From assembly GCF_001677475.2 (NCBI RefSeq), contig NZ_CP015229.1: DNA of 64,000 nt. One strand, given 5' to 3'. The notes beneath the pieces were generated by a model. That model saw only the letters and a program-made list of their open reading frames with translations. It was not told the DNA's origin and searched no databases. A program made the translations under genes and the position numbers. This document shows positions 2,950 to 61,290 of the stretch, in pieces (the stretch's first letter is position 1; each line of letters starts with the position of its first letter). Source of the DNA: Escherichia coli (lineage in GTDB: Bacteria; Pseudomonadota; Gammaproteobacteria; Enterobacterales; Enterobacteriaceae).

Positions 2950-3043
2950 GCTGTTACGCCTGTTTCATTCCGCCCGATAGTAAAATTCGGGCAAAGCATC
3001 CCCGTGTAGCGCCATAAATGAGCTACAGGAGAAAAGGTTGAAA

Positions 3044-3904
3044 TCAATTCATGGTGTTCAGGGTTCGAAAGCCATGCAGCATTCCTGCAAGGCAATCCAC
3101 TCCTGACGTTGCGCCAAATTGCATGACCTGTTCTGCACAGGATGCGATTGTCATTGCCGATGCGCCCCCAACCAGTTGTGCGAGTAACTGGCAAATCGGT
3201 TCTGAAAAATGCCCCCGAAGCGCACGCTCCAGATAATGACGACTGATGTCAGTGGTGTTGTGCGCATGTTGATCAATTGCCTGCTGCAACCGGTATTGAT
3301 GAGCGGCAAGTGGTGCAGGTAGTTGCCATAACCAGAGCGCTGCCAGATAGCCCAACAAATAGTCATCTCCATCGGGAGTTAAGCCTTTGCCAAAGCCGAT
3401 CAGTTGTGGCACCTGGCGTTCCAGCGCATCTGGATGTTCCATAATCTCTAATCCCTGGTGCGTGAGACTATCCGGCAGGTGCAATGTGCTTTGAACGTTA
3501 TGCTCCAGACAAAATAAAAGCCGTTGCGATGCCATCGTTGGGTAGTGCTGGAAAACCAAAGGGAACGCCTCAAGTGTCAGCCTTCCTCCCACAAATGACG
3601 GCTGCCAGAGCGTTGCGTTATCGAGAGCCACACAAAAGCGAGGTGTCTGCAGCAAGCCTGGGGTTAACTGAACGGGATCGGAATGGGCAATCTCTCTTCG
3701 CCAGTCCCAACGCTTAGGCAGCCAGACTCTGGCAGCATCAGGGAGATTCAGATACGTTTGCGCACACAACAGGGTGATGAATGTTCCCGCTTCTGAATAC
3801 AGATTTACCGCATGTTTAAAAGCACTGTGCAGACGTAAATCTTGCGTTTCATTCCACGGGAAAAGATATCCCAACGACGATGCGCAAAGCGTAACCTGTA
3901 CCAT
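3044..3904 (-). CDS. Putative YlbF/YahE-like protein (DUF2877 suggested)
   Basis: 286 aa ORF with a GKGLTPDGDD motif, sitting immediately upstream of the fdrA-like gene as in the fdrA-ylbE-ylbF and yahEFG paralogue sets. Confidence 0.5.
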   Translation of the reverse strand: MVQVTLCASSLGYLFPWNETQDLRLHSAFKHAVNLYSEAGTFITLLCAQTYLNLPDAARVWLPKRWDWRREIAHSDPVQLTPGLLQTPRFCVALDNATLWQPSFVGGRLTLEAFPLVFQHYPTMASQRLLFCLEHNVQSTLHLPDSLTHQGLEIMEHPDALERQVPQLIGFGKGLTPDGDDYLLGYLAALWLWQLPAPLAAHQYRLQQAIDQHAHNTTDISRHYLERALRGHFSEPICQLLAQLVGGASAMTIASCAEQVMQFGATSGVDCLAGMLHGFRTLNTMN

Positions 3905-40150: not shown

Positions 40151-40393
40151 ATAGAGCGAGGACGCTAACAGGAACAATGACTCAGGATGAGGGTCAGGAG
40201 CGCCAGGAGGCGAAGACAGAGGATTGTCAGGAAGACAAACGTCCGGAGACGTAATTAAACGGAAATGGAATCAACACGGATTGTTCCGGCTAATGGAAAA
40301 ACAGGGTGTGTTGGCGGCCTGCAAGGATTGTAAGACCCGTTAAGGGTTATGAGTCAGGAAAAAAGGCGACAGAGTAATCTGTCGCCTTTTTTC
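40151..40393 (+). ncRNA. csrC: CsrC small RNA (CsrA-sequestering)
   Basis: Many GGA motifs (caggatgagggtcaggagcgccaggaggcgaag...); ends in gcgacagagtaatctgtcgcctttttt terminator. Confidence 0.9.
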
Positions 40394-52680: not shown

Positions 52681-53469
52681 TCAGGATACTTCTTGCTCAG
52701 CAACCACCAGTTCAACATTCTCTTCACTTAACAACTGGCAGAAAGAATTGGGAGGCGGGGCATCAGTAAAAAAAGCCCTGACATTCCGTGCATTGCCAAT
52801 TGAAACGGCAGCAGACGCGGCAAACTTCGTATGATCGGCCACTAACAATGTATTCCGCGCATGTTTAATCATCGTTCTTGCGACTAACGCTTCATTGACA
52901 TCAAATTCCAGTAGGGTGCCGTCATGTTCAATGGCACCTATACTGGTGATTAAATAATCTGCGCGGAAGCCTTCAATAAAATCCACGGCTCCTGGGCCGA
53001 TAATCCCGCCGTTATGAGCGCGTAAAGTGCCTCCCGGCACCATCACTTCAATATCCTGATTCTTATAAAGAATCTGTGCCACACGTAGGCTGTTAGTGAT
53101 AATGCGTAAATCACGACGGTTGAGTAATGCCCTGGCAACGGCTTCTACGGTTGTACCGATGGTGATAAAGACGGTACAGCGTTCGGGAAGGTAATCGGCG
53201 ACTGCCTCAGCGATCGCCCGTTTCTCGGCGGTGAGCGAAAGTTCCCGTTGCTCAAAAGCGGTATTCATGACGCTGGAGACGCGCCCGGCCCCTCCATGAT
53301 GACGGGTGATCAACCCCTGCTCACTGAGTTTTCGGATATCCCGGCGCACGGTTTGCGTTGAAACATCCAGCAGTTGTGCCAGTTCTTCAATATTCATATA
53401 ACCGCGTTCTGCGATTAGATGAACGAGTTGGTCATGGCGTGGATTACCTGTCACTTCGATGATACTCAT
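52681..53469 (-). CDS. DeoR-family transcriptional repressor (YihW/CsqR-like)
   Basis: 262 aa; N-terminal HTH (IEELAQLLDVSTQTVRRDIRKL) and sugar-phosphate-binding C-terminal domain; homologous but not identical to K-12 YihW as I recall it. Confidence 0.85.
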   Translation of the reverse strand: MSIIEVTGNPRHDQLVHLIAERGYMNIEELAQLLDVSTQTVRRDIRKLSEQGLITRHHGGAGRVSSVMNTAFEQRELSLTAEKRAIAEAVADYLPERCTVFITIGTTVEAVARALLNRRDLRIITNSLRVAQILYKNQDIEVMVPGGTLRAHNGGIIGPGAVDFIEGFRADYLITSIGAIEHDGTLLEFDVNEALVARTMIKHARNTLLVADHTKFAASAAVSIGNARNVRAFFTDAPPPNSFCQLLSEENVELVVAEQEVS

Positions 53470-53508
53470 GAATACTCCCTTGCCCCTCCTCGGTATATGT
53501 TTACCATT

Positions 53509-54405
53509 TTACGCATAAAGTGACAAAAATGATTCGGTTTGCTCACGATTAGGAATGCCGGCCCGACCGCCAGGCTGGGTACATTTCATCGCGGCAACCG
53601 CACTGGCAAAACGAATAGCCTCTTTTGTTGGCATTTTTTCTGCCAACGCTACCGCGAGTGCGCCGTGAAAAACATCGCCTGCTCCAGTGGTATCAACCAC
53701 ATTGACAGAAAATGCCTCCTGTTGACACAAATGATCATCTTCAATCCACAACGATCCTTCAGAACCCAGCGTAACATACACTTTACCTGCTGTTTGTGTC
53801 GTTGCCTGGAACAAACCTTCTTCAGGTGACTGCAGGCCAGTCATGCGTTTCAGCCCCGGTGTTGAGAACACGGCGTGATCGGCAAGCGCGACAAGTGGAG
53901 AAATATCCTGCGGTGTCATATCGGCGTCTAAAAGCGTTGTCACCCCCGCAAGGCGCGCTAGCGAGAATGCTTTTTCAGTACCGCTATGCCAGCGAACATC
54001 GGCCAGAATCAGATCATAACGAGAGAAATCGATCGCTTCTAACCATTCGGCATCAGTACCGAGATCGGGACTTGGATAATTAACGATAATCCGTTCGCCA
54101 TGCTGATCAACGAGGATCGCTGATTGCGACGAACGGGCGTTAGGATATCGGCGGCAAAATGCGGTATTGACGCCCCAACCCTCAAGTTCTGCAAGTAAGG
54201 TATTTCCACAACTGTCATCGCCGACGCGACCGATGAAATCAACCTCCACGCCAAGCTTTGCGATTGCAACAGCGGCTGTTGCTGCCGGGCCGCCACCAAT
54301 CTCAAGATAATGATTTGCCTGATATTTCCCGCCGCCATCCGGCAGAGTGAGCAAAGAATAAATCCTGTCCTGAACTGTGATACCCACGCATGCAATTTTT
54401 GTCAT
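53509..54405 (-). CDS. PfkB-family sugar kinase (YihV-like)
   Basis: Start at [16 protein letters not shown]; [11 protein letters not shown] and [12 protein letters not shown] motifs; ORF track extends to 54456. Confidence 0.85.
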
Positions 54406-54577
54406 ATTTGTCTTGTCCTGTTTAATTTTGTCGTCTTTGGTCAATTTAAATGACACAAATGATCAAATTAGTGATGTGTGTCGTGTTTTTGAACATAAAT
54501 TACAAATATGCTCAAAAACAGACGAAAACGAATTTTCAATTGTCATTATTTTGTCAATGTCAGACAGGAGAGTATTC

Positions 54578-55456
54578 ATGGCAACCATTGCATTTCTCGG
54601 GCTGGGGCAGATGGGTAGCCCAATGGCTAACAATCTATTGCGAAAAGGGCATTCATTGCAGGTATTTGATGTCAATGCACAGGCCGTCGATGCGCTAGTT
54701 ACGCAGGGGGCCACTGCGGCACAAACCCCAGCGGAAGCGGCAGCAGGCGCTGAATTTATCATCACTATGCTTCCCAATGGTGACATTGTTCGACAGGTTC
54801 TGTTGGGGGAAAAAGGCGTCTGTGAGGCTGTTTCATCTGACGCGTTATTGATTGATATGTCGACTATTCATCCCTTACAGACCGATGCATTAATACGGGA
54901 GTTACAAGAAAAAGGCATCAGTATGATGGACGCCCCCGTGGGCAGAACATCCGTGAATGCGATTGATGGCACATTGCTGATTTTAGCGGGTGGCACTGAT
55001 GAGCAGATTGCGCGTGCACGCCCGATTCTCATGTGCATGGGTAATGAGCTGGTCGAGGCTGGCGGCCCAGGAATGGGGATCCGCGTGAAGCTAATTAACA
55101 ACTATATGAGCATTGCGCTTAATGCGCTGTCCTCCGAGGCCGCTGTGTTATGTGAGTCACTGGGATTAAATCTTGATGTCGCAATTAAGGTGATGAGTGG
55201 TACGGCAGCAGGGAAAGGACATTTTACGACCACCTGGCCTGGCAAAGTGCTGAAAGGCGATCTTTCACCCGCCTTCATGGTGGATCTGGCGTTGAAAGAT
55301 CTGCGTATTGCAGTTGACGTCGCTCGGGAGACGGGGGCACCGCTCAATATGGGGATTGCAGCAGAAAGTTATTACGCCGCAGCAAGTCAAGACGGCAAAG
55401 GGCGGCAGGACTGGAGCGCCCTGCTAAATCAGGTTCGCCAGCAGGCTGGTCTTTAA
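54578..55456 (+). CDS. NAD-dependent beta-hydroxyacid dehydrogenase-family reductase (YihU-like)
   Basis: Start at [20 protein letters not shown] (Rossmann GLGQMG) with RBS caggagag upstream; about 292 aa. Confidence 0.85.
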
Positions 55457-55480
55457 TTTTATCTATTAACAGGAGTTTCT

Positions 55481-56368
55481 ATGTCATCCCACTTCACCCC
55501 ATTTACGCTGAAAGATATCTCCCGCCCAGGTGGTGGATTCGCCATGTTAGCTGTCGATCAGCGTGAGGCCATGCGCCTGATGTTTGCGGCAGCAGGGCAG
55601 CCCAAACCCATCGCCGACAGTGTACTCACCGATTTTAAAGTTGCCGCGACCCGAATCCTTTCTCCTTATGCTTCTGCCGTTCTGGCGGATAAACAATTTT
55701 GTCTTGAGCAAATAGTCGAGCAGGGCGCTGTTGCTAATTCTTGCGGCCTGATTGTCGCTGCCGATCTTTTTATCCCAGGTAATGGCATCCCGGTTGATAG
55801 CGTTGAAATAGATATGTCCGTCGACCCGCATAAAGCCCGTGAAATGGGGGCTAAGGCAATGAAATTACTTGTACTCTGGCGTGAAGATGAACCCGCAGAG
55901 GAACGTCTGGCAATGGTTGATAAATTTGTTCGTCGCTGCCGTAGTGCCGGACTGGTTAGCATTATTGAACCTGTGGTGCGTCCACCTCGTCGCGGTTGGG
56001 ACTTTGATCGTGAAAGCGCCATTGCCGCGGCCGCCGCAGAGCTTGGTGGAACAGAGGCTGATCTTTACAAAGCCGAGATGCCATTAGGGGGCAAAGGCGA
56101 TGAAAAAACCTTACTTGCCGCCTGTCAGCAACTTAACGATCAGATGAAGATGCCGTGGGTAATTCTTTCTTCTGGCGTTGATGCCGATATTTTTGGCCGT
56201 GCAGTAAGTATTGCCATGAAAGGTGGGGCGTCGGGCTTCCTGGCTGGACGAGCGGTTTGGGCGTCGGTTGTTGGTGCACAAGATCCACAAACTATGCTGC
56301 GCGATGTCTCCGTTCCACGCTTGCAACGGCTGGCTGAAATTGTCGATGAAGGTATCGCGCAACGCTAA
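55481..56368 (+). CDS. Class I (LacD-like) ketose-phosphate aldolase (YihT-like)
   Basis: 295 aa; [14 protein letters not shown] and [12 protein letters not shown] motifs. Confidence 0.85.
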
Positions 56369-56400
56369 TCCCCTATGGATATCGATTCTGGAGAATAACA

Positions 56401-57411
56401 ATGGATAAAAGTACCCAGGTTTTATTTTCAGATATTGGGAAAGTCACCACTCAATATGTTGAAGTACCACACCAGGAACTTAAACCGCACGAAGTGCGGA
56501 TTGCGCCTGTGTTCTATGGGATATGCGGTTCGGATCTGCATGTTCTGAAAGGCGGTCATCCGTTTGCCAAACCACCTGTCGTCCCCGGTCATGAAATTGC
56601 AGCGCGCGTTGCGGAAGTTGGCAGCGACGTTAAAAATGTACAGCCGGGCGATCATGTTGTGGTCGATCCCATCATGGCTTGCATGGAATGCCGAGCCTGC
56701 AAAGCAGGACGTTTTAATCTTTGTGAACCACCGCAGGTTGCTGGTTTTCGCGCACCGGGCTTTGCTCGCTCACAACACATTGTTCCTGCGCGTAATTGCC
56801 ATGTCGCACCAGCCTCTTTACCGCTAAAAGTGTTAGCCTTTGCCGAACCGGCGGCTTGTGCTCGTCACTGCGTTAACCGAATGCCGAAAGCTTCTCTGGA
56901 AAGCGTACTGGTGATTGGTGCCGGAACGATAGGCTTATCCATCGTGCAGGCACTGCGCATTATGGGGGCAGGTAAGATTACCGTGATTGAACCTGACGCT
57001 GCCAAACGCGCGCTGGCGTTAAAGCTGGGCGCAGCAGAAGTTTGGGCACCAGGTGAGCTGGCCGCAGATGTGCGATTTACGGGGGCGATTGATGTCGTTG
57101 CAGCGCAGGCCACGCTTAACGATGCATGTACCCGTGTATATGCCGGAGGCACCGTCGTGTGCATGGGCGTACCAAGTGGGCCGCGTGAAATACCATTACC
57201 TATGATGCAACGTTTCGAGCGTGACTTGCTCAACTCTGGCATGTACATCCCTGAAGATTTCGATGCTGTTATCGAATGGCTGGCGGATGGGCGGTTTGAT
57301 ACCAGTGAACTGGTTACCGATTTATTTGCCATTGAGGATGCAGCGGCGGCATTCGAACGCGCGCAGCAAAATGACTCCATAAAGGTCATGCTGCAATTTG
57401 CGCCGGAATGA
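56401..57411 (+). CDS. Zinc-dependent medium-chain dehydrogenase/reductase
   Basis: 336 aa; catalytic-zinc GHE motif (PVVPGHEIAARV), four-cysteine structural zinc cluster (CMECRACKAGRFNLC), Rossmann VIGAGTIGL. Confidence 0.85.
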   Translation: MDKSTQVLFSDIGKVTTQYVEVPHQELKPHEVRIAPVFYGICGSDLHVLKGGHPFAKPPVVPGHEIAARVAEVGSDVKNVQPGDHVVVDPIMACMECRACKAGRFNLCEPPQVAGFRAPGFARSQHIVPARNCHVAPASLPLKVLAFAEPAACARHCVNRMPKASLESVLVIGAGTIGLSIVQALRIMGAGKITVIEPDAAKRALALKLGAAEVWAPGELAADVRFTGAIDVVAAQATLNDACTRVYAGGTVVCMGVPSGPREIPLPMMQRFERDLLNSGMYIPEDFDAVIEWLADGRFDTSELVTDLFAIEDAAAAFERAQQNDSIKVMLQFAPE

Positions 57412-57480
57412 TTTTCTAAATCTCTGTCTGGCGCTGCGTCACGTCAGCGCCACCCTACAACAATTAAAAAGGACACTGCG

Positions 57481-58914
57481 ATGAGTCAAATCACCAGTCC
57501 TGCAACTTATTCAATTAGTCGGCCACAGGACGTAATTGATATTGTTAATAAGAACTCTGCAATCAACACCAGTATCGGCGTTATTTTTATTGCTTTGGGC
57601 GGCATATTGATTGATGCCTACCAGGCGGCGATGGTGGGGTTTGGTAATAAATACATTGCCGCTCAATTCGGCATTTCGCCGGGTCTTGCTGCAACCGTCA
57701 ATGCATCAGTATTAATCGCCGCGTTAATTGGCGGTTTATTAGCGAACCGAGTAATAAACCGCTTTGGGCAAAAGCGGGCATTTATTATTGGCATGGGGCT
57801 GTGCACCATCGGTGCTGCAGCGGTAGCTATTGCTCCCAGTATCTGGTGGGTGCTGGTGTGCCGCGTCATCATGGGCTTTGGTTTAGGCATCGACTTCCCT
57901 TTGGCAACCAATGCCGTGGCAGAGCTTCGTGGTTCAACGTCGAAGAAAACCGGAACGTCGGTCAACCTCTGGCAAATGGCCTGGTATGTTTCGACAACCG
58001 TTGTTTATTTGGTGCTTTTGCCGCTGCTTCTGTCGGGTATCGCTGAAGAACAATTGTGGCGTTACGGAATATTCATCGGAGCTATTTTTGCAGTCATCTT
58101 CATGATTTTGCGTTACTTCTTTATTGGTGAATCCGCAATGTGGGCTGCACGCGTCGGGCGTTACCAGGAAGCGTGCGACATTCTGGGAAAACGTTATGGT
58201 GTTCAGGCTCGCGTTGCGGCATCGGGTACAACAGAAGCGAAATTCTCGGAAAAAGCAGAGAATAAATACAGTGGTGGATATGGCATCTTATTTAATGATC
58301 GTTACCGCAAACGCACCATTCTTGGTTGTGTCGTGGCAACCATGCAGGCGTGGCAATATAACGCCGTAGGTGTTTATCTTCCTCTTACGTTGGCGGGAAT
58401 AATAAGTGGCGGGCTTACTGGCGCGTTGACCGGTTCTGCCGTCGTGAATGCCCTTTGTGGGGTGACAGGTGGGATGATCGGCTCGTTTATTCTCCAACGA
58501 CTGGGTACTCGCCGACAGTCGATGTATGGATTTGCTGTTGTGACCTTAGCATTGCTGTCGTTAGGCGCACTGGCAACGACTAATCCCTGGCTGTCTTTAG
58601 GGTTATTGGGATCAATTATTTTCTTCCATTCAGCGGGTCCTGGTGGGCTGGGCATGACCATTGCCACACTCTCTTATCCTCCCGCTATTCGTCCTACTGG
58701 GGTCGGATTTGCCCGCGCTATTATGCGCACAGGGGCAATTGCAGGACTCATTTTCTGGCCGATGCTGTGGGGTACGTTGAAAACTGAAGCGTTTTATTGG
58801 TTGGCAATTGTGCCATTCCTGGGGTTCCTGACCTGCGTATTGATTAATTGGGAACCTTTGGGAGCAAATGTTGATGCTGAGGATGCAGAGGTTCTGGCTG
58901 AATTGAAGAAATAA
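57481..58914 (+). CDS. MFS transporter, subfamily unclear
   Basis: 477 aa polytopic membrane protein with a central hydrophilic loop. Confidence 0.8.
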   Translation: MSQITSPATYSISRPQDVIDIVNKNSAINTSIGVIFIALGGILIDAYQAAMVGFGNKYIAAQFGISPGLAATVNASVLIAALIGGLLANRVINRFGQKRAFIIGMGLCTIGAAAVAIAPSIWWVLVCRVIMGFGLGIDFPLATNAVAELRGSTSKKTGTSVNLWQMAWYVSTTVVYLVLLPLLLSGIAEEQLWRYGIFIGAIFAVIFMILRYFFIGESAMWAARVGRYQEACDILGKRYGVQARVAASGTTEAKFSEKAENKYSGGYGILFNDRYRKRTILGCVVATMQAWQYNAVGVYLPLTLAGIISGGLTGALTGSAVVNALCGVTGGMIGSFILQRLGTRRQSMYGFAVVTLALLSLGALATTNPWLSLGLLGSIIFFHSAGPGGLGMTIATLSYPPAIRPTGVGFARAIMRTGAIAGLIFWPMLWGTLKTEAFYWLAIVPFLGFLTCVLINWEPLGANVDAEDAEVLAELKK

Positions 58915-58951
58915 ATTAATGCGCATCGGCTTAAACCGATGCGCATTAATT
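58914..58951. repeat. 16-bp perfect inverted repeat (stem-loop or operator)
   Basis: aattaatgcgcatcgg cttaaa ccgatgcgcattaatt, starting at the stop codon of the upstream transporter gene. Confidence 0.8.
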
Positions 58952-59012
58952 CAAACTGCCCACGTTTAGTGGTTCGTATCCCAGATTTCTCGCCTACCAG
59001 GAGAGGAAAATT

Positions 59013-60362
59013 ATGTCTGAAAAGTTACCCGCACCGCGTGAAGGGCTTTCCGGTAAAGCCATGAGACGTGTCGTTATGGGCAGTTTCGCAGGCGCGTTAA
59101 TGGAATGGTATGACTTCTTTATTTTTGGCACGGCAGCAGGACTGGTATTTGCACCGCTGTTTTATCCAGACAGCGATCCTTTTATAGGTCTTATAGCTTC
59201 CTTTGCGACCTTTGGTGTCGGTTTTCTGACTCGTCCTTTAGGTGGCATCGTCTTTGGTCATTTTGGCGATAAAATCGGGCGAAAAATAACACTTATCTGG
59301 ACGCTGGCTATTGTCGGTTGCTCCACATTTTTGATTGGTTTTATTCCGACGTATCAGGAAATTGGCATTTGGGCACCGCTTGTATTAATGGTGCTGCGTT
59401 TGATTCAGGGCTTTGGTCTTGGTGGCGAGTACGGCGGAGCGGCATTGATGACCATAGAATCAGCGCCCGAATCCCGACGCGGATTTTTAGGTTCACTCCC
59501 GCAAACGGCTGCGTCTGTGGGTATTATGCTGGCAACCGGTATTTTTGCTCTCTGTAACCATTTTCTTACTTCGGAGCAGTTTCTCTCCTGGGGATGGCGC
59601 ATTCCGTTTTGGCTTTCTGCGGTGATGTTGATCGTTGGGCTGTTTATCCGCCTGCATACCGAAGAAACGCTGGATTTTCAAAAGCAAAAAACGACGAATA
59701 ATAAAGAAAAGTCCGTTCCTCCGTTGATTGAATTATTCAAAAAACATCCACGAAATATTTTATTGGCACTGGGTGCGAGGCTGGCGGAAAGTGTCTCCTC
59801 TAATATTATTAACGCCTTTGGTATTGTCTATATTTCCAGCCAATTAGCATTGTCGCGAGATATTCCCCTGACGGGTATGTTGATTGCCTCGGCGATCGGT
59901 ATTTTCAGTTGTCCATTGGTTGGATGGTTATCAGATCGTATAGGTCAAAAAAGTCTGTATTTGTCGGGAGCAGGATTTTGTGTCCTGTTCGCGTTTCCTT
60001 TCTTCTTATTACTGGATAGCAAAAGTACGCTCATCATCTGGTGCAGTATGATCCTCGGCTACAACTTAGGTCCGACGATGATGTTTGCCGTGCAGCCAAC
60101 ACTTTTCACCCGCATGTTCGGTACCAAAGTACGATATACCGGCCTTTCTTTTGCTTATCAATTTTCCGCGATTCTTGGCGGACTAAGCCCCCTTATCGCC
60201 TCAAGTTTGCTGGCGCTAGGGGGAGGAAAACCGTGGTATGTCGCTCTGTTTTTATTTGCTGTCTCAGTTCTTTCCTTTGTTTGCGTCTGGCTGATTGAGC
60301 CGACCGATGAACAAGAAACCGCTTCTTACCGCTACATCAGGGAACAATCTCATGAAAACTGA
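59013..60362 (+). CDS. MFS transporter of metabolite:H+ symporter type (ProP/KgtP/ShiA-like)
   Basis: 449 aa; WYDFFIFG and GLGGEYGGAALM signature segments. Confidence 0.8.
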   Translation: MSEKLPAPREGLSGKAMRRVVMGSFAGALMEWYDFFIFGTAAGLVFAPLFYPDSDPFIGLIASFATFGVGFLTRPLGGIVFGHFGDKIGRKITLIWTLAIVGCSTFLIGFIPTYQEIGIWAPLVLMVLRLIQGFGLGGEYGGAALMTIESAPESRRGFLGSLPQTAASVGIMLATGIFALCNHFLTSEQFLSWGWRIPFWLSAVMLIVGLFIRLHTEETLDFQKQKTTNNKEKSVPPLIELFKKHPRNILLALGARLAESVSSNIINAFGIVYISSQLALSRDIPLTGMLIASAIGIFSCPLVGWLSDRIGQKSLYLSGAGFCVLFAFPFFLLLDSKSTLIIWCSMILGYNLGPTMMFAVQPTLFTRMFGTKVRYTGLSFAYQFSAILGGLSPLIASSLLALGGGKPWYVALFLFAVSVLSFVCVWLIEPTDEQETASYRYIREQSHEN

Positions 60363-61239
60363 ACGAAAAAACGAGCATTACCTGGCGCTACAACAGGCGT
60401 TTGACGCGCCATGGCCTGGGCCTGTAGGAGAGTTAGTGACGCTGGAAAAAGGCAATATTCACCTGCAGATTTATCCGCATGATGGTGCCAGGATAACCTC
60501 GTTAAAGGCATTTGGTTCTGAAGTATTACGCCAATGGCAGCCGCAGCGCAGAGCTTTTCAGTATGGCTGTTTCCCAATGGTGCCGTGGGCAGGGCGACTG
60601 GGGAATGCGACGCTGAATGCTGGTGGGCAATGTTATTCTTTACCCGCCAATAAACCACCACATGCGTTGCATGGTATGGCTTGTTACTCAACGTGGGAAA
60701 TCATCGACAAAACAATAGATTCCCTGACTTTACGTATGCCCCTGGCTTCACCGTGGCCCTGGCAAGGGGAAGTGATTCAGACTTTTTTGCTGGAGAACGA
60801 TGCGCTGGTTTTGCAACTGGAAATCCATTCACATACCGATACATTCCCGGCCTCTGCAGGCTGGCATCCGTGGTTTGCGAAAAAGCTGACTCCGCAAAAT
60901 ACAGAATCGTTGCAGGTGCTTTTTGATGCGGACTGGCAAGAGGAAGCGGGTAGTGATGAACTGCCAACTGGAAATCGCATCTCTCCTCAAGCTGGTCCCT
61001 GGGATGACTGTTTTGGTTTTTATGACGGGGTGAAGGTTAAGTTACTGTGGCCTGGTAAACTCACGATGACCATGACCTCTTCTGCAAACAGTCTGGTGGT
61101 ATTTGATAAACAGCCCGATGCCACCTGTGTTAATCCGCTTACTCAGGCACCTAACGCAATAAATCTAACGCCGGAATTGGTGACATCAGATAAGCCGCTG
61201 GTCATCGAAACTCGTTGGCAATTTACACCTGAATCTTAA
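60352..61239 (+). CDS. Aldose 1-epimerase family protein (YihR-like mutarotase)
   Basis: Start at MKTERKNEHYLALQQAFD, overlapping the upstream transporter stop by 11 nt; ORF track starts at 60295. Confidence 0.75.
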   Translation: MKTERKNEHYLALQQAFDAPWPGPVGELVTLEKGNIHLQIYPHDGARITSLKAFGSEVLRQWQPQRRAFQYGCFPMVPWAGRLGNATLNAGGQCYSLPANKPPHALHGMACYSTWEIIDKTIDSLTLRMPLASPWPWQGEVIQTFLLENDALVLQLEIHSHTDTFPASAGWHPWFAKKLTPQNTESLQVLFDADWQEEAGSDELPTGNRISPQAGPWDDCFGFYDGVKVKLLWPGKLTMTMTSSANSLVVFDKQPDATCVNPLTQAPNAINLTPELVTSDKPLVIETRWQFTPES

Positions 61240-61249
61240 CCATTCATCT

Positions 61250-61290
61250 ATTGCGAAAAAGCCAGTGAAATTACTCTGCTTTTTCGCAAT
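61250..61290. repeat. 13-bp perfect inverted repeat with 15-nt loop
   Basis: attgcgaaaaagc cagtgaaattactct gctttttcgcaat, 11 nt after the mutarotase stop. Confidence 0.75.

What the first reader, a model, noticed from the sequence alone, without database searches (positions are those of the whole stretch)
58914..58951. Perfect 16-bp inverted repeat between the two transporter genes
aattaatgcgcatcgg cttaaa ccgatgcgcattaatt begins exactly at the stop codon of the first transporter gene and lies 61 nt before the next start. A perfect 16-bp stem is unusually long for an intra-operon spacer and has no following T run, so it is not a classical intrinsic terminator. It could be an RNA stability or processing element that sets differential expression of the two halves of the operon, or a DNA operator.
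Basis: seen in the sequence. Interest (0 to 1): 0.5.

Follow-up and report, generated by a model that had tools for sequence, protein, structure and literature searches.

The report
Conserved mRNA hairpin between two transporter genes
The perfect 16-bp palindrome is real and is the E. coli version of an RNA stem-loop that related bacteria keep at the same spot between these two transporter genes, most likely an ordinary device that shields the upstream part of the operon's mRNA from degradation.

Summary
Arms 58914-58929 and 58936-58951 are perfectly complementary, with loop CTTAAA. The first base is the last A of the MFS1 stop codon, and the MFS2 ATG lies 61 nt downstream. About 1e-4 such repeats are expected by chance in the window.

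The window is E. coli, in the "short yih cassette" carried by about a quarter of complete genomes. The palindrome is single-copy and found only at this locus, so it is not a REP-like repeat. It matches no Rfam family. It has no U-tract on the sense strand and no counterpart in the cassette's promoter region.

In 30 of 33 distinct orthologous spacers of at least 40 nt, from Citrobacter to Vibrio, a stem of at least 6 pairs begins within a few bases of the MFS1 stop (24-35 nt downstream in two lineages). The sequence changes but the pairing is kept. A-U, G·U and G-C alternate at several positions. Mismatches inside the stems are G·T on the coding strand (17 versus 4 A·C). That pattern points to selection on the sense mRNA, not on DNA.

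The spacer also holds a second hairpin and a third one that buries the MFS2 ribosome-binding site.

Best reading: an intercistronic protective stem-loop of the malE-malF type. This is a new member of a known kind. The mechanism is inferred, not shown.

The parts
57481..58914 (+). MFS1: 477-aa sugar-porter-type MFS transporter gene. Its TAA stop (58912-58914) abuts the hairpin.
   Evidence: ORF list, translation, RefSeq annotation 'MFS transporter', Pfam Sugar_tr/MFS_1 in orthologues.
58914..58929 (+). HP1 5' arm, AATTAATGCGCATCGG.
58930..58935 (+). HP1 loop, CTTAAA. It is polymorphic in E. coli: TTTAAG in B2 strains and CTTAAG in 23 genomes.
58936..58951 (+). HP1 3' arm, CCGATGCGCATTAATT.
   Evidence: RNA fold -24.7 kcal/mol, z = -8.6. 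Structure conserved across genera.
58952..58959 (+). Unpaired linker (CAAACTGC) between HP1 and HP2. It is a candidate site for endonucleolytic cleavage, which is an inference only.
   Evidence: Unpaired in the minimum-free-energy folds. The corresponding linkers in relatives are A-rich.
58960..58972 (+). HP2: a small 4-bp hairpin, CCAC GTTTA GTGG. Its counterpart in Phytobacter, Pantoea and others is an 8-11-bp stem followed by TTTTCTC.
58986..59008 (+). HP3: TTTCTC/CCT pairs with AGG/GAGGAA and sequesters the MFS2 Shine-Dalgarno sequence (GGAGAGG, 59000-59006).
   Evidence: RNAalifold recovers its outer stem. 96% of cells are paired in 23 sequences, with one covarying pair.
59013..60362 (+). 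MFS2: 449-aa MFS transporter gene of the metabolite:H+ symporter type. Its end overlaps the start of the aldose 1-epimerase gene.

Best explanation
The palindrome is transcribed as part of the yihU-aldolase-ADH-MFS1-MFS2-epimerase mRNA. There it folds into a very stable stem-loop (HP1) that begins at the MFS1 stop codon. It is the E. coli form, lengthened by A-U pairs, of a stem-loop that Enterobacteriaceae and more distant Gammaproteobacteria maintain at this junction. The most likely function is that of an intercistronic protective 3' structure. After endonucleolytic cleavage in the unpaired spacer or in the poorly translated MFS2 segment, 3'-to-5' exonucleases (PNPase, RNase II) digest back to HP1 and stall. 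The upstream segment, ending with MFS1, therefore outlives the MFS2-epimerase segment. Together with the downstream hairpin that buries the MFS2 ribosome-binding site, this would set MFS1 above MFS2 in expression. What is shown: the hairpin exists, it is non-random, it is single-copy, and it is conserved as a structure with a sense-strand signature. What is inferred: the exonuclease-barrier mechanism and the direction of the expression difference.
For: The hairpin is real and far beyond chance. No promoter-like site lies in the 98-nt spacer. MFS1-MFS2 adjacency is conserved: both genes were found in 27 of the 28 genome loci (the 28th contig ends about 600 bp after MFS1), they are directly adjacent in 22, and a 1-2 kb insert separates them in 5. 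So the hairpin lies inside a transcription unit. In the 33 distinct orthologous spacers of at least 40 nt, 30 have a hairpin with at least 6 Watson-Crick pairs. It starts -3 to +12 nt from the stop in 27 of them, and the stem sequences differ between lineages. 29 of these 33 spacers fold with z < -2 against dinucleotide shuffles. On a 16-sequence alignment of the homologous Enterobacteriaceae hairpins, 80.4% of cells are paired, against 68.4% in shuffles (0 of 500 as high) and 24-39% when the partner is slid. The top 8 pairs contain no unpaired cell. The pair series G-C/G·U/A-U, U-A/U·G/C-G and C-G/U-A are seen. Escherichia sp. L004 differs from E. coli by a double A-T to C-G change. A strand-neutral count gives 17 G·T versus 4 A·C mismatches inside stems, and the A·C cases are all in the outermost positions. 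The + strand fold is 4-11 kcal/mol more stable than the - strand fold in 9 distinct spacers (L005, L006, L008, L015, L019, L024, L025, L033, L037). [quoted passage not shown]
Against: There are no transcript 3'-end, half-life or abundance data for this locus. The one RNA-seq study of the cassette reports it as not induced and gives no values for the MFS genes. In the window allele the - strand hairpin is slightly more stable than the + strand one (-27.7 versus -24.7 kcal/mol). Compensatory changes in palindromes can arise in one step by template switching, so they are weaker evidence of selection than in ordinary helices. The alignment used was registered by hand on the stem top. Three distant cassettes (L020, L022, L031) have 15-19-nt spacers with no hairpin. 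In the Phytobacter group and in L040 HP1 is degenerate, with no stem longer than 4 contiguous pairs in the first 50 nt.
Confidence: 0.5

Rival explanations
1. Partial transcription terminator or pause site on the sense strand. A fraction of RNA polymerases stop at HP1 (or at HP2 in relatives), so MFS2 and the epimerase gene are transcribed less than the upstream genes.
For: HP1 is a strong hairpin within the operon. In Vibrio rhodolitus the equivalent hairpin is followed by ACTTTTTCC, and in a Succinivibrionaceae genome by TTTACC. In Phytobacter, Pantoea and L042-L045 the second hairpin is followed by TTTTCTC.
Against: E. coli and nearly all Enterobacteriaceae have no U-tract after HP1; the following bases are CAAACTG, CTTAAC, ATAAAT or AAGTAA. 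The + strand terminator scan finds nothing at HP1, nor at HP2 in L042 or L029. By established knowledge, E. coli RNA polymerase needs the U-tract for efficient intrinsic termination.
Confidence: 0.12
2. Translational element. HP1 is one module of a three-hairpin spacer whose job is to control translation of MFS2. It would insulate the SD-sequestering hairpin HP3 from upstream sequence and from terminating ribosomes, or block re-initiation, so that MFS2 is translated independently of MFS1 and at a low level.
For: HP3 buries the MFS2 Shine-Dalgarno sequence and is conserved in all 23 Enterobacteriaceae spacers. HP1 starts at the stop codon, so a terminating ribosome must melt it (and established ribosome footprint size). 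The whole spacer folds with z of about -6.
Against: HP1 lies about 35 nt upstream of HP3 and no conserved alternative pairing between them was found. Lineages with quite different spacers (Budvicia, Leminorella, Vibrio) keep a hairpin after the stop but have no HP3-like element.
Confidence: 0.12
3. No selected function for the perfection or length of the E. coli stem. An ordinary short hairpin was lengthened and perfected by palindrome-associated mutation (template switching), or the stem-loop is a relic of a former operon end.
For: Window bases 58915-58935 are the exact reverse complement of bases 58930-58950 of the majority allele, so one template switch could produce all three differences. 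L037 carries an 18-nt tandem duplication inside the hairpin, which shows that the site is mutationally active. The 16-bp perfect form is found in only 439 of 1328 genomes.
Against: A hairpin persists at this junction across families with unrelated stem sequences and with a sense-strand G·U bias. The stepwise intermediates between the E. coli alleles exist. Within Escherichia, substitutions in the spacer fall mostly in loops and linkers.
Confidence: 0.1
4. Terminator for antisense transcription. Read on the - strand, the hairpin followed by TTATTTCTTC stops transcripts that run backwards out of MFS2 into MFS1.
For: The - strand scan flags it as terminator-like, with 19 pairs and tail TTTCTTCAAT. 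The same holds for L042. The - strand fold of the window allele is -27.7 kcal/mol. A weak promoter-like site exists on the - strand at 59830-59802.
Against: The T-rich tail is the complement of the lysine and stop codons (AAG AAA TAA) and needs no other explanation. Mismatches in relatives are G·T on the + strand, which weakens the - strand hairpin by 4-11 kcal/mol. Distant lineages have no T-run on the - strand. No convergent gene is present.
Confidence: 0.06
5. DNA operator. A dimeric regulator, such as the cassette's DeoR-family YihW/CsqR, binds the palindrome as double-stranded DNA and blocks or modulates transcription into MFS2.
For: It is a perfect palindrome, and each arm contains the 8-bp self-palindrome ATGCGCAT.
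Against: The core half-site is not enriched in the window (27 matches versus 29 expected), and none of the matches lies in the yihV/yihU promoter spacer, which has a different inverted repeat, TGTTTTTGAACATA-N9-TATGCTCAAAAACA. [quoted passage not shown] What is conserved across genera is pairing, not sequence, with asymmetric G·T changes that break DNA dyad symmetry. A 16-bp arm is far longer than a half-site.
Confidence: 0.04

Closest known systems
Intercistronic protective 3' stem-loops of polycistronic mRNAs: the malE-malF REP hairpin, and the 'protective RNA 3' structures' of Dar & Sorek 2018 (PMC5927463)
   Same: It is a stable stem-loop just after the stop codon of an upstream cistron, inside an operon, with no U-tract. 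The structure is conserved between related species, and more than one hairpin occurs in the same operon (there is also one in the ADH-MFS1 spacer).
   Different: It is not a REP copy. It is unique in the genome, and its sequence is unrelated to the REP consensus. No 3'-end or decay data exist for it. Most structures reported by Dar & Sorek lie inside the coding sequence of the downstream gene, whereas this one lies in a 98-nt spacer.
Intrinsic (Rho-independent) terminators
   Same: It has a GC-cored stem-loop of similar or greater stability. On the - strand it even has a T-rich tail.
   Different: It has no U-tract on the sense strand. It lies between two co-oriented genes whose adjacency is conserved, with no promoter-like site between them.
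REP/BIME and other extragenic palindromic repeat families of E. coli
   Same: It is an extragenic, palindromic sequence placed right after a stop codon.
   Different: It is single-copy. It is found in 1328 genomes only at this locus and not at all in the 4098 complete genomes that lack the cassette.
SD-sequestering hairpins, such as fourU-type RNA thermometers and translational-coupling hairpins (relevant to the neighbouring HP3, not to HP1)
   Same: A U-rich strand (UUUCUC) pairs with the Shine-Dalgarno sequence of the downstream gene.
   Different: There is no evidence of temperature or ligand response. HP1 itself does not touch the ribosome-binding site.

Membership tests
Protective intercistronic 3' stem-loop (malE-malF type) | A stable stem-loop at the 3' boundary of an upstream cistron within one transcription unit | tested here: met
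   The fold is -24.7 kcal/mol with z = -8.6. It starts at the stop codon. No promoter-like site lies in the spacer. The gene pair is conserved.
Protective intercistronic 3' stem-loop (malE-malF type) | The structure, rather than the sequence, is conserved in related species | tested here: met
   Searches show compensatory and G·U-intermediate changes, and 29 of 33 spacers fold with z < -2.
Protective intercistronic 3' stem-loop (malE-malF type) | RNA 3' ends accumulate at the base of the hairpin, and the upstream segment has a longer half-life than the downstream one | not testable with these tools
   No Term-seq or decay data are available for strains with this cassette. The supplement of PMC12608037 holds no values for these genes.
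Intrinsic terminator | A U-tract immediately 3' of the stem on the transcribed strand | tested here: not met
   The following bases are CAAACTGCCC. The + strand scan is negative. The feature is met only on the - strand.
Intrinsic terminator | Located at the end of a transcription unit | tested here: not met
   MFS2 and the epimerase gene follow in the same orientation, and the order is conserved across orders of bacteria. The operon-end hairpin is at 61250-61290.
REP/BIME-type repeat family | Many dispersed copies per genome | tested here: not met
   Every one of the 1328 positive genomes has exactly two 'places', read here as the two strands of the one palindrome (the coordinates of the second place were not shown). 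Genomes lacking the cassette have none. No other copy occurs in the window or in the 45 loci.
Transcription-factor operator (DeoR/YihW) | The half-site recurs in the regulated promoter region, and sequence rather than pairing is conserved | tested here: not met
   Searches find no half-site in 54407-54578. Searches show that pairing is conserved with asymmetric G·T changes.
Any curated RNA family (Rfam 15) | A match to a covariance model | tested here: not met
   No match up to E = 10 in 57000-61000 on either strand.
RNase III processing stem | About two helical turns (about 20 bp) of double-stranded RNA, conserved | tested here: inconclusive
   The E. coli stem is 14-16 bp, or up to 19 bp with G·U pairs on the - strand. 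Orthologues have only 7-12 bp. Cleavage itself cannot be tested here.

The most novel reading that the evidence does not exclude
The three hairpins of the MFS1-MFS2 spacer together form an undescribed cis-regulatory RNA. They are HP1 at the stop codon, HP2 with a U-rich tail, and HP3 burying the MFS2 ribosome-binding site. The element would be conserved in a widespread, uncharacterised yihU/yihT-type sugar or sulfosugar cassette. It would respond to a signal (metabolite, temperature or upstream translation) to set the ratio of the two transporters. HP1 would be an integral, specifically recognised part of it and not a generic decay barrier.
Probability: 0.08. Interest if true: 0.55.

Novelty: new member of a known kind. 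Interest (0 to 1): 0.27.

Why it matters
If the reading is right, this is one more case of an operon whose gene ratios are tuned after transcription by a conserved stem-loop. Here it would set the balance of two different MFS transporters in a cassette whose substrate is still unknown. The cassette sits in about a quarter of E. coli strains, including Nissle 1917 and many ExPEC. The comparative data give a clean, testable example: A-U/G·U/G-C series and a strand-specific mismatch bias. They also show that the so-called truncated yih cassette is really a conserved eight-gene unit. None of this changes current understanding of mRNA decay or termination.

Tried and rejected
- **Repeat family.** blastn of the 56-nt region against 5426 complete E. 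coli genomes found only this locus. Mismatch searches in the window and a degenerate pattern search in all fetched loci found no other copies.
- **Known RNA family.** An Rfam scan at E up to 10 found nothing.
- **Sense-strand terminator.** The scan was negative for HP1, and also for the stronger HP2 of relatives.
- **Operator.** The half-site is at chance frequency, none of its matches lies in the promoter spacer, and that spacer has a different inverted repeat.
- **Unbiased consensus structure.** MAFFT plus RNAalifold on the whole spacer recovered only the outer stem of HP3, because HP1 and HP2 were misaligned. I therefore registered the HP1 sequences by hand. I backed this with per-sequence folds and a strand-neutral inverted-repeat search that do not depend on the alignment.
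- **Crude strand comparison.** Total G·U counts in 48-nt folds of the two strands were uninformative, 37 versus 30. I replaced this with the stem-interior count.
- **Expression data.** The only paper on the cassette (PMC12608037) does not mention the ADH, MFS or epimerase genes or any hairpin. Its supplement has no values for them.
- **Loop inversion by template switching.** I considered this as the origin of the window allele but could not prefer it over stepwise substitution, because the intermediates exist.
- **Not done.** I did not scan metagenome contigs for the arm motif. It would mostly have returned E. coli itself.

Full report
**Observation**

The window reads ...GAA TTG AAG AAA TAA|ATTAATGCGCATCGG CTTAAA CCGATGCGCATTAATT CAAACTG....
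- The arms are 58914-58929 and 58936-58951, complementary at 16 of 16 positions. The loop is 58930-58935.
- Base 58914 is the last A of the stop codon of the 477-aa ORF 57481-58914.
- The next ORF (449 aa) starts with ATG at 59013, which is 61 nt after the right arm.
- With the window's base composition, 1.2e-4 perfect stems of at least 16 bp are expected. The longest in 40 dinucleotide shuffles was 13 bp.
- As RNA the hairpin has -24.7 kcal/mol, z = -8.6.

**Where this is**

The 3-kb region matches 1342 of 5426 complete E. coli genomes at 95% identity or more. RefSeq annotation places it between typA and yihX. The gene order is a DeoR regulator and a sugar kinase on one strand, then yihU, aldolase, Zn-alcohol dehydrogenase, MFS transporter, MFS transporter and aldose 1-epimerase on the other.

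NCBIfam names the first gene of the operon a sulfolactaldehyde 3-reductase equivalog. The second transporter is of the metabolite:H+ symporter type. This is the "short yih cassette" of Kaznadzey et al. 2025 (PMC12608037). That paper reports it in Nissle 1917 and many pathogenic strains and finds it is not induced by sulfoquinovose. It does not mention the four downstream genes.

**Is it a repeat family, a known RNA or an operator?**

- *Repeat family.* The 56 nt around the palindrome are found in 1328 genomes, always under the MFS gene. Each genome has exactly two "places", which I read as the two strands of the one palindrome. The other 4098 genomes have no match. The window has no other copy.
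- *Known RNA.* Rfam gives nothing up to E = 10.
- *Operator.* The 11-nt core of the arm occurs 27 times with up to 2 mismatches, against 29 expected. None of these matches lies in the divergent yihV/yihU promoter spacer (54407-54578). That spacer carries a different inverted repeat, TGTTTTTGAACATA-N9-TATGCTCAAAAACA, at 54484-54520. [quoted passage not shown]
- *Promoter.* No promoter-like site lies in the MFS1-MFS2 spacer.

**Variation inside E. coli**

Three alleles account for nearly all genomes.
- The window form (A at 58915, loop CTTAAA) occurs in 439 genomes.
- The B2 form (T at 58915, loop TTTAAG) occurs in 866. It has 14 Watson-Crick pairs plus a closing U·G pair.
- An intermediate with loop CTTAAG occurs in 23.

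The perfect 16-bp stem is therefore a minority allele. A cryptic Escherichia lineage (L004) has TTCATG...CATGAA where E. coli has TTAATG...CATTAA, a double change that keeps the pair.

**Comparative evidence**

A scan of one genome per species with an MFS1 profile returned 28 loci, and twelve contig look-ups added more.
- Both genes were found in 27 of the 28 genome loci; the 28th contig ends about 600 bp after MFS1.
- They are directly adjacent in 22 loci: Enterobacterales, Vibrio, Sutterella and Succinivibrionaceae.
- In 5 loci (Alpha- and Betaproteobacteria) a 1-2 kb insert lies between them, beginning with a yihU-like gene.

In Enterobacteriaceae the spacer has a common three-hairpin plan.
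- HP1 lies right after the stop codon.
- HP2 is variable: 4 bp in E. coli, 8-11 bp followed by UUUUCUC in Phytobacter, Pantoea and L042-L045, and absent in Trabulsiella.
- HP3 pairs UUUCUC/CCN with NGG/GAGGAA and buries the MFS2 Shine-Dalgarno sequence.

29 of 33 distinct spacers fold with z < -2 against dinucleotide shuffles.

HP1 is recognisably homologous across Enterobacteriaceae, with core GCGC(R)(Y)CGG ... CCG(R)(Y)GCGC. More distant lineages (Budvicia, Leminorella, Vibrio, two Citrobacter-like paralogous cassettes, Edaphovirga and Succinivibrionaceae) have unrelated hairpins in the same spacer. Most of these start within about 10 nt of the stop; in Edaphovirga and Succinivibrionaceae the stem starts 24-35 nt downstream.

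**Pairing statistics for HP1**

I used a 16-sequence alignment registered on the top of the stem.
- 80.4% of cells are standard pairs, against 68.4% in shuffles (0 of 500 as high) and 24-39% when the 3' partner is slid by 1-3 columns.
- The eight loop-proximal pairs have no unpaired cell.
- Pair series include GC:10/AU:5/GU:1, UA:10/CG:3/UG:3 and GC:7/GU:7/AU:2.

**Which strand?**

A protein-binding DNA palindrome or a - strand RNA would not favour G·T over A·C on the + strand. I ran a search that treats both transition mismatches alike. Stem-interior mismatches were 17 G·T against 4 A·C, and the four A·C all lie in the outermost positions of AT-rich stem bases.

In nine distinct spacers the + strand hairpin is 4-11 kcal/mol more stable than its complement. 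The clearest case is L015, with -19.7 versus -8.7 kcal/mol.

The window allele is the exception. Its - strand version (19 pairs, two of them G·U, followed by TTTCTTCAAT) is 3 kcal/mol more stable and is flagged as terminator-like. That T-rich tail is simply the complement of AAG AAA TAA.

**Mechanism**

Taken together, HP1 is a selected structure of the sense mRNA, inside an operon, without a U-tract, next to an unpaired linker, and upstream of a cistron whose ribosome-binding site is sequestered. This matches the established model for differential decay within operons. In that model a 3' stem-loop shields the upstream segment from PNPase and RNase II after endonucleolytic cleavage downstream, and poorly translated downstream cistrons decay faster (Dar & Sorek 2018; malE-malF).

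I put 0.5 on this specific mechanism and about 0.75 on the broader statement that HP1 acts as an RNA structure on the sense transcript.

The rivals are:
- partial termination (0.12);
- a role within a translational control module together with HP3 (0.12);
- a mutational by-product or relic, as regards the E. coli-specific length and perfection (0.10);
- an antisense terminator (0.06);
- a DNA operator (0.04).

**Limits**

- No experimental transcript data exist for this locus.
- The HP1 alignment was hand-registered.
- The sequences are related, so shuffle counts are not probabilities.
- Palindromes can acquire "compensatory" changes in a single template-switch event. Window bases 58915-58935 equal the reverse complement of bases 58930-58950 of the B2 allele. 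This could mean that one such event created the perfect stem, although all stepwise intermediates are also observed.

**Verdict**

The feature is real and is a conserved RNA structure not previously described. It belongs to a well-known kind and would not surprise a specialist in bacterial mRNA decay.

Noticed in passing
window 58986-59008: Hairpin HP3 pairs UUUCUC/CCU with AGG/GAGGAA and sequesters the Shine-Dalgarno sequence (59000-59006) of the second transporter gene. It is present in all 23 Enterobacteriaceae spacers examined (96% of cells paired), with one covarying pair (G-C/G·U/U-A). It resembles fourU-type or coupling hairpins. Its function was not tested.
   Followed up: partly
window 58960-58972; L042 3468-3496, L029 and L027 equivalents: The second hairpin is only 4 bp in E. 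coli. It is an 8-11-bp GC-rich stem followed by UUUUCUC in Phytobacter, Pantoea and several metagenome relatives, with U-A/U·G/C-G covariation. The U-rich tail doubles as the anti-SD strand of HP3. The simple terminator scan does not flag it. Strength seems to trade off between the two hairpins: lineages with a weak HP1 have a strong HP2, and the reverse.
   Followed up: partly
window 57429-57452: Another intercistronic hairpin, TGGCGCTG-CGTCACGT-CAGCGCCA, lies in the 69-nt spacer between the alcohol dehydrogenase gene and the first transporter gene.
   Followed up: no
window 54407-54578: The divergent promoter spacer between the sugar kinase gene and yihU holds an inverted repeat, TGTTTTTGAACATA-N9-TATGCTCAAAAACA (54484-54520), and many TTTGTC repeats. 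These are candidate YihW/CsqR operators and are unrelated to the palindrome under study.
   Followed up: partly
window 58915-58935 versus L002 (EC958) 3026-3046: The loop of the window allele (CTTAAA) is the reverse complement of the loop of the majority B2 allele (TTTAAG). The 21 nt 58915-58935 equal the reverse complement of positions 58930-58950 of that allele. A single template-switch event could explain all three differences, but the stepwise intermediates also exist.
   Followed up: partly
L037 3935-4054: A metagenome relative of the Mixta/Citrobacter-type spacer carries an 18-nt tandem duplication (GCGCGTCGGCCCGCGTCG) inside HP1, which lengthens the spacer from 102 to 120 nt.
   Followed up: no
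window 52681-61239; loci L004-L045: The published 'short (truncated) yih cassette', yihTUVW, is followed by Zn-alcohol dehydrogenase, two MFS transporters and an aldose epimerase. This eight-gene order is conserved across Enterobacterales, and the transporter pair is conserved as far as Vibrio, Sutterella and Succinivibrionaceae. It therefore looks like a complete, distinct catabolic cassette of unknown substrate and not a remnant. It has no yihS isomerase and no yihQ sulfoquinovosidase.
   Followed up: partly
window 61250-61290: The 13-bp inverted repeat ATTGCGAAAAAGC ... GCTTTTTCGCAAT lies 11 nt after the epimerase stop codon. It is the likely terminator of the operon and is bidirectional in form.
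   Followed up: no
window 40358-40393: This is the only other perfect 16-bp inverted repeat in the window, GAAAAAAGGCGACAGA / TCTGTCGCCTTTTTTC. It has A and T runs on both sides, which is the form of a bidirectional intrinsic terminator.
   Followed up: no
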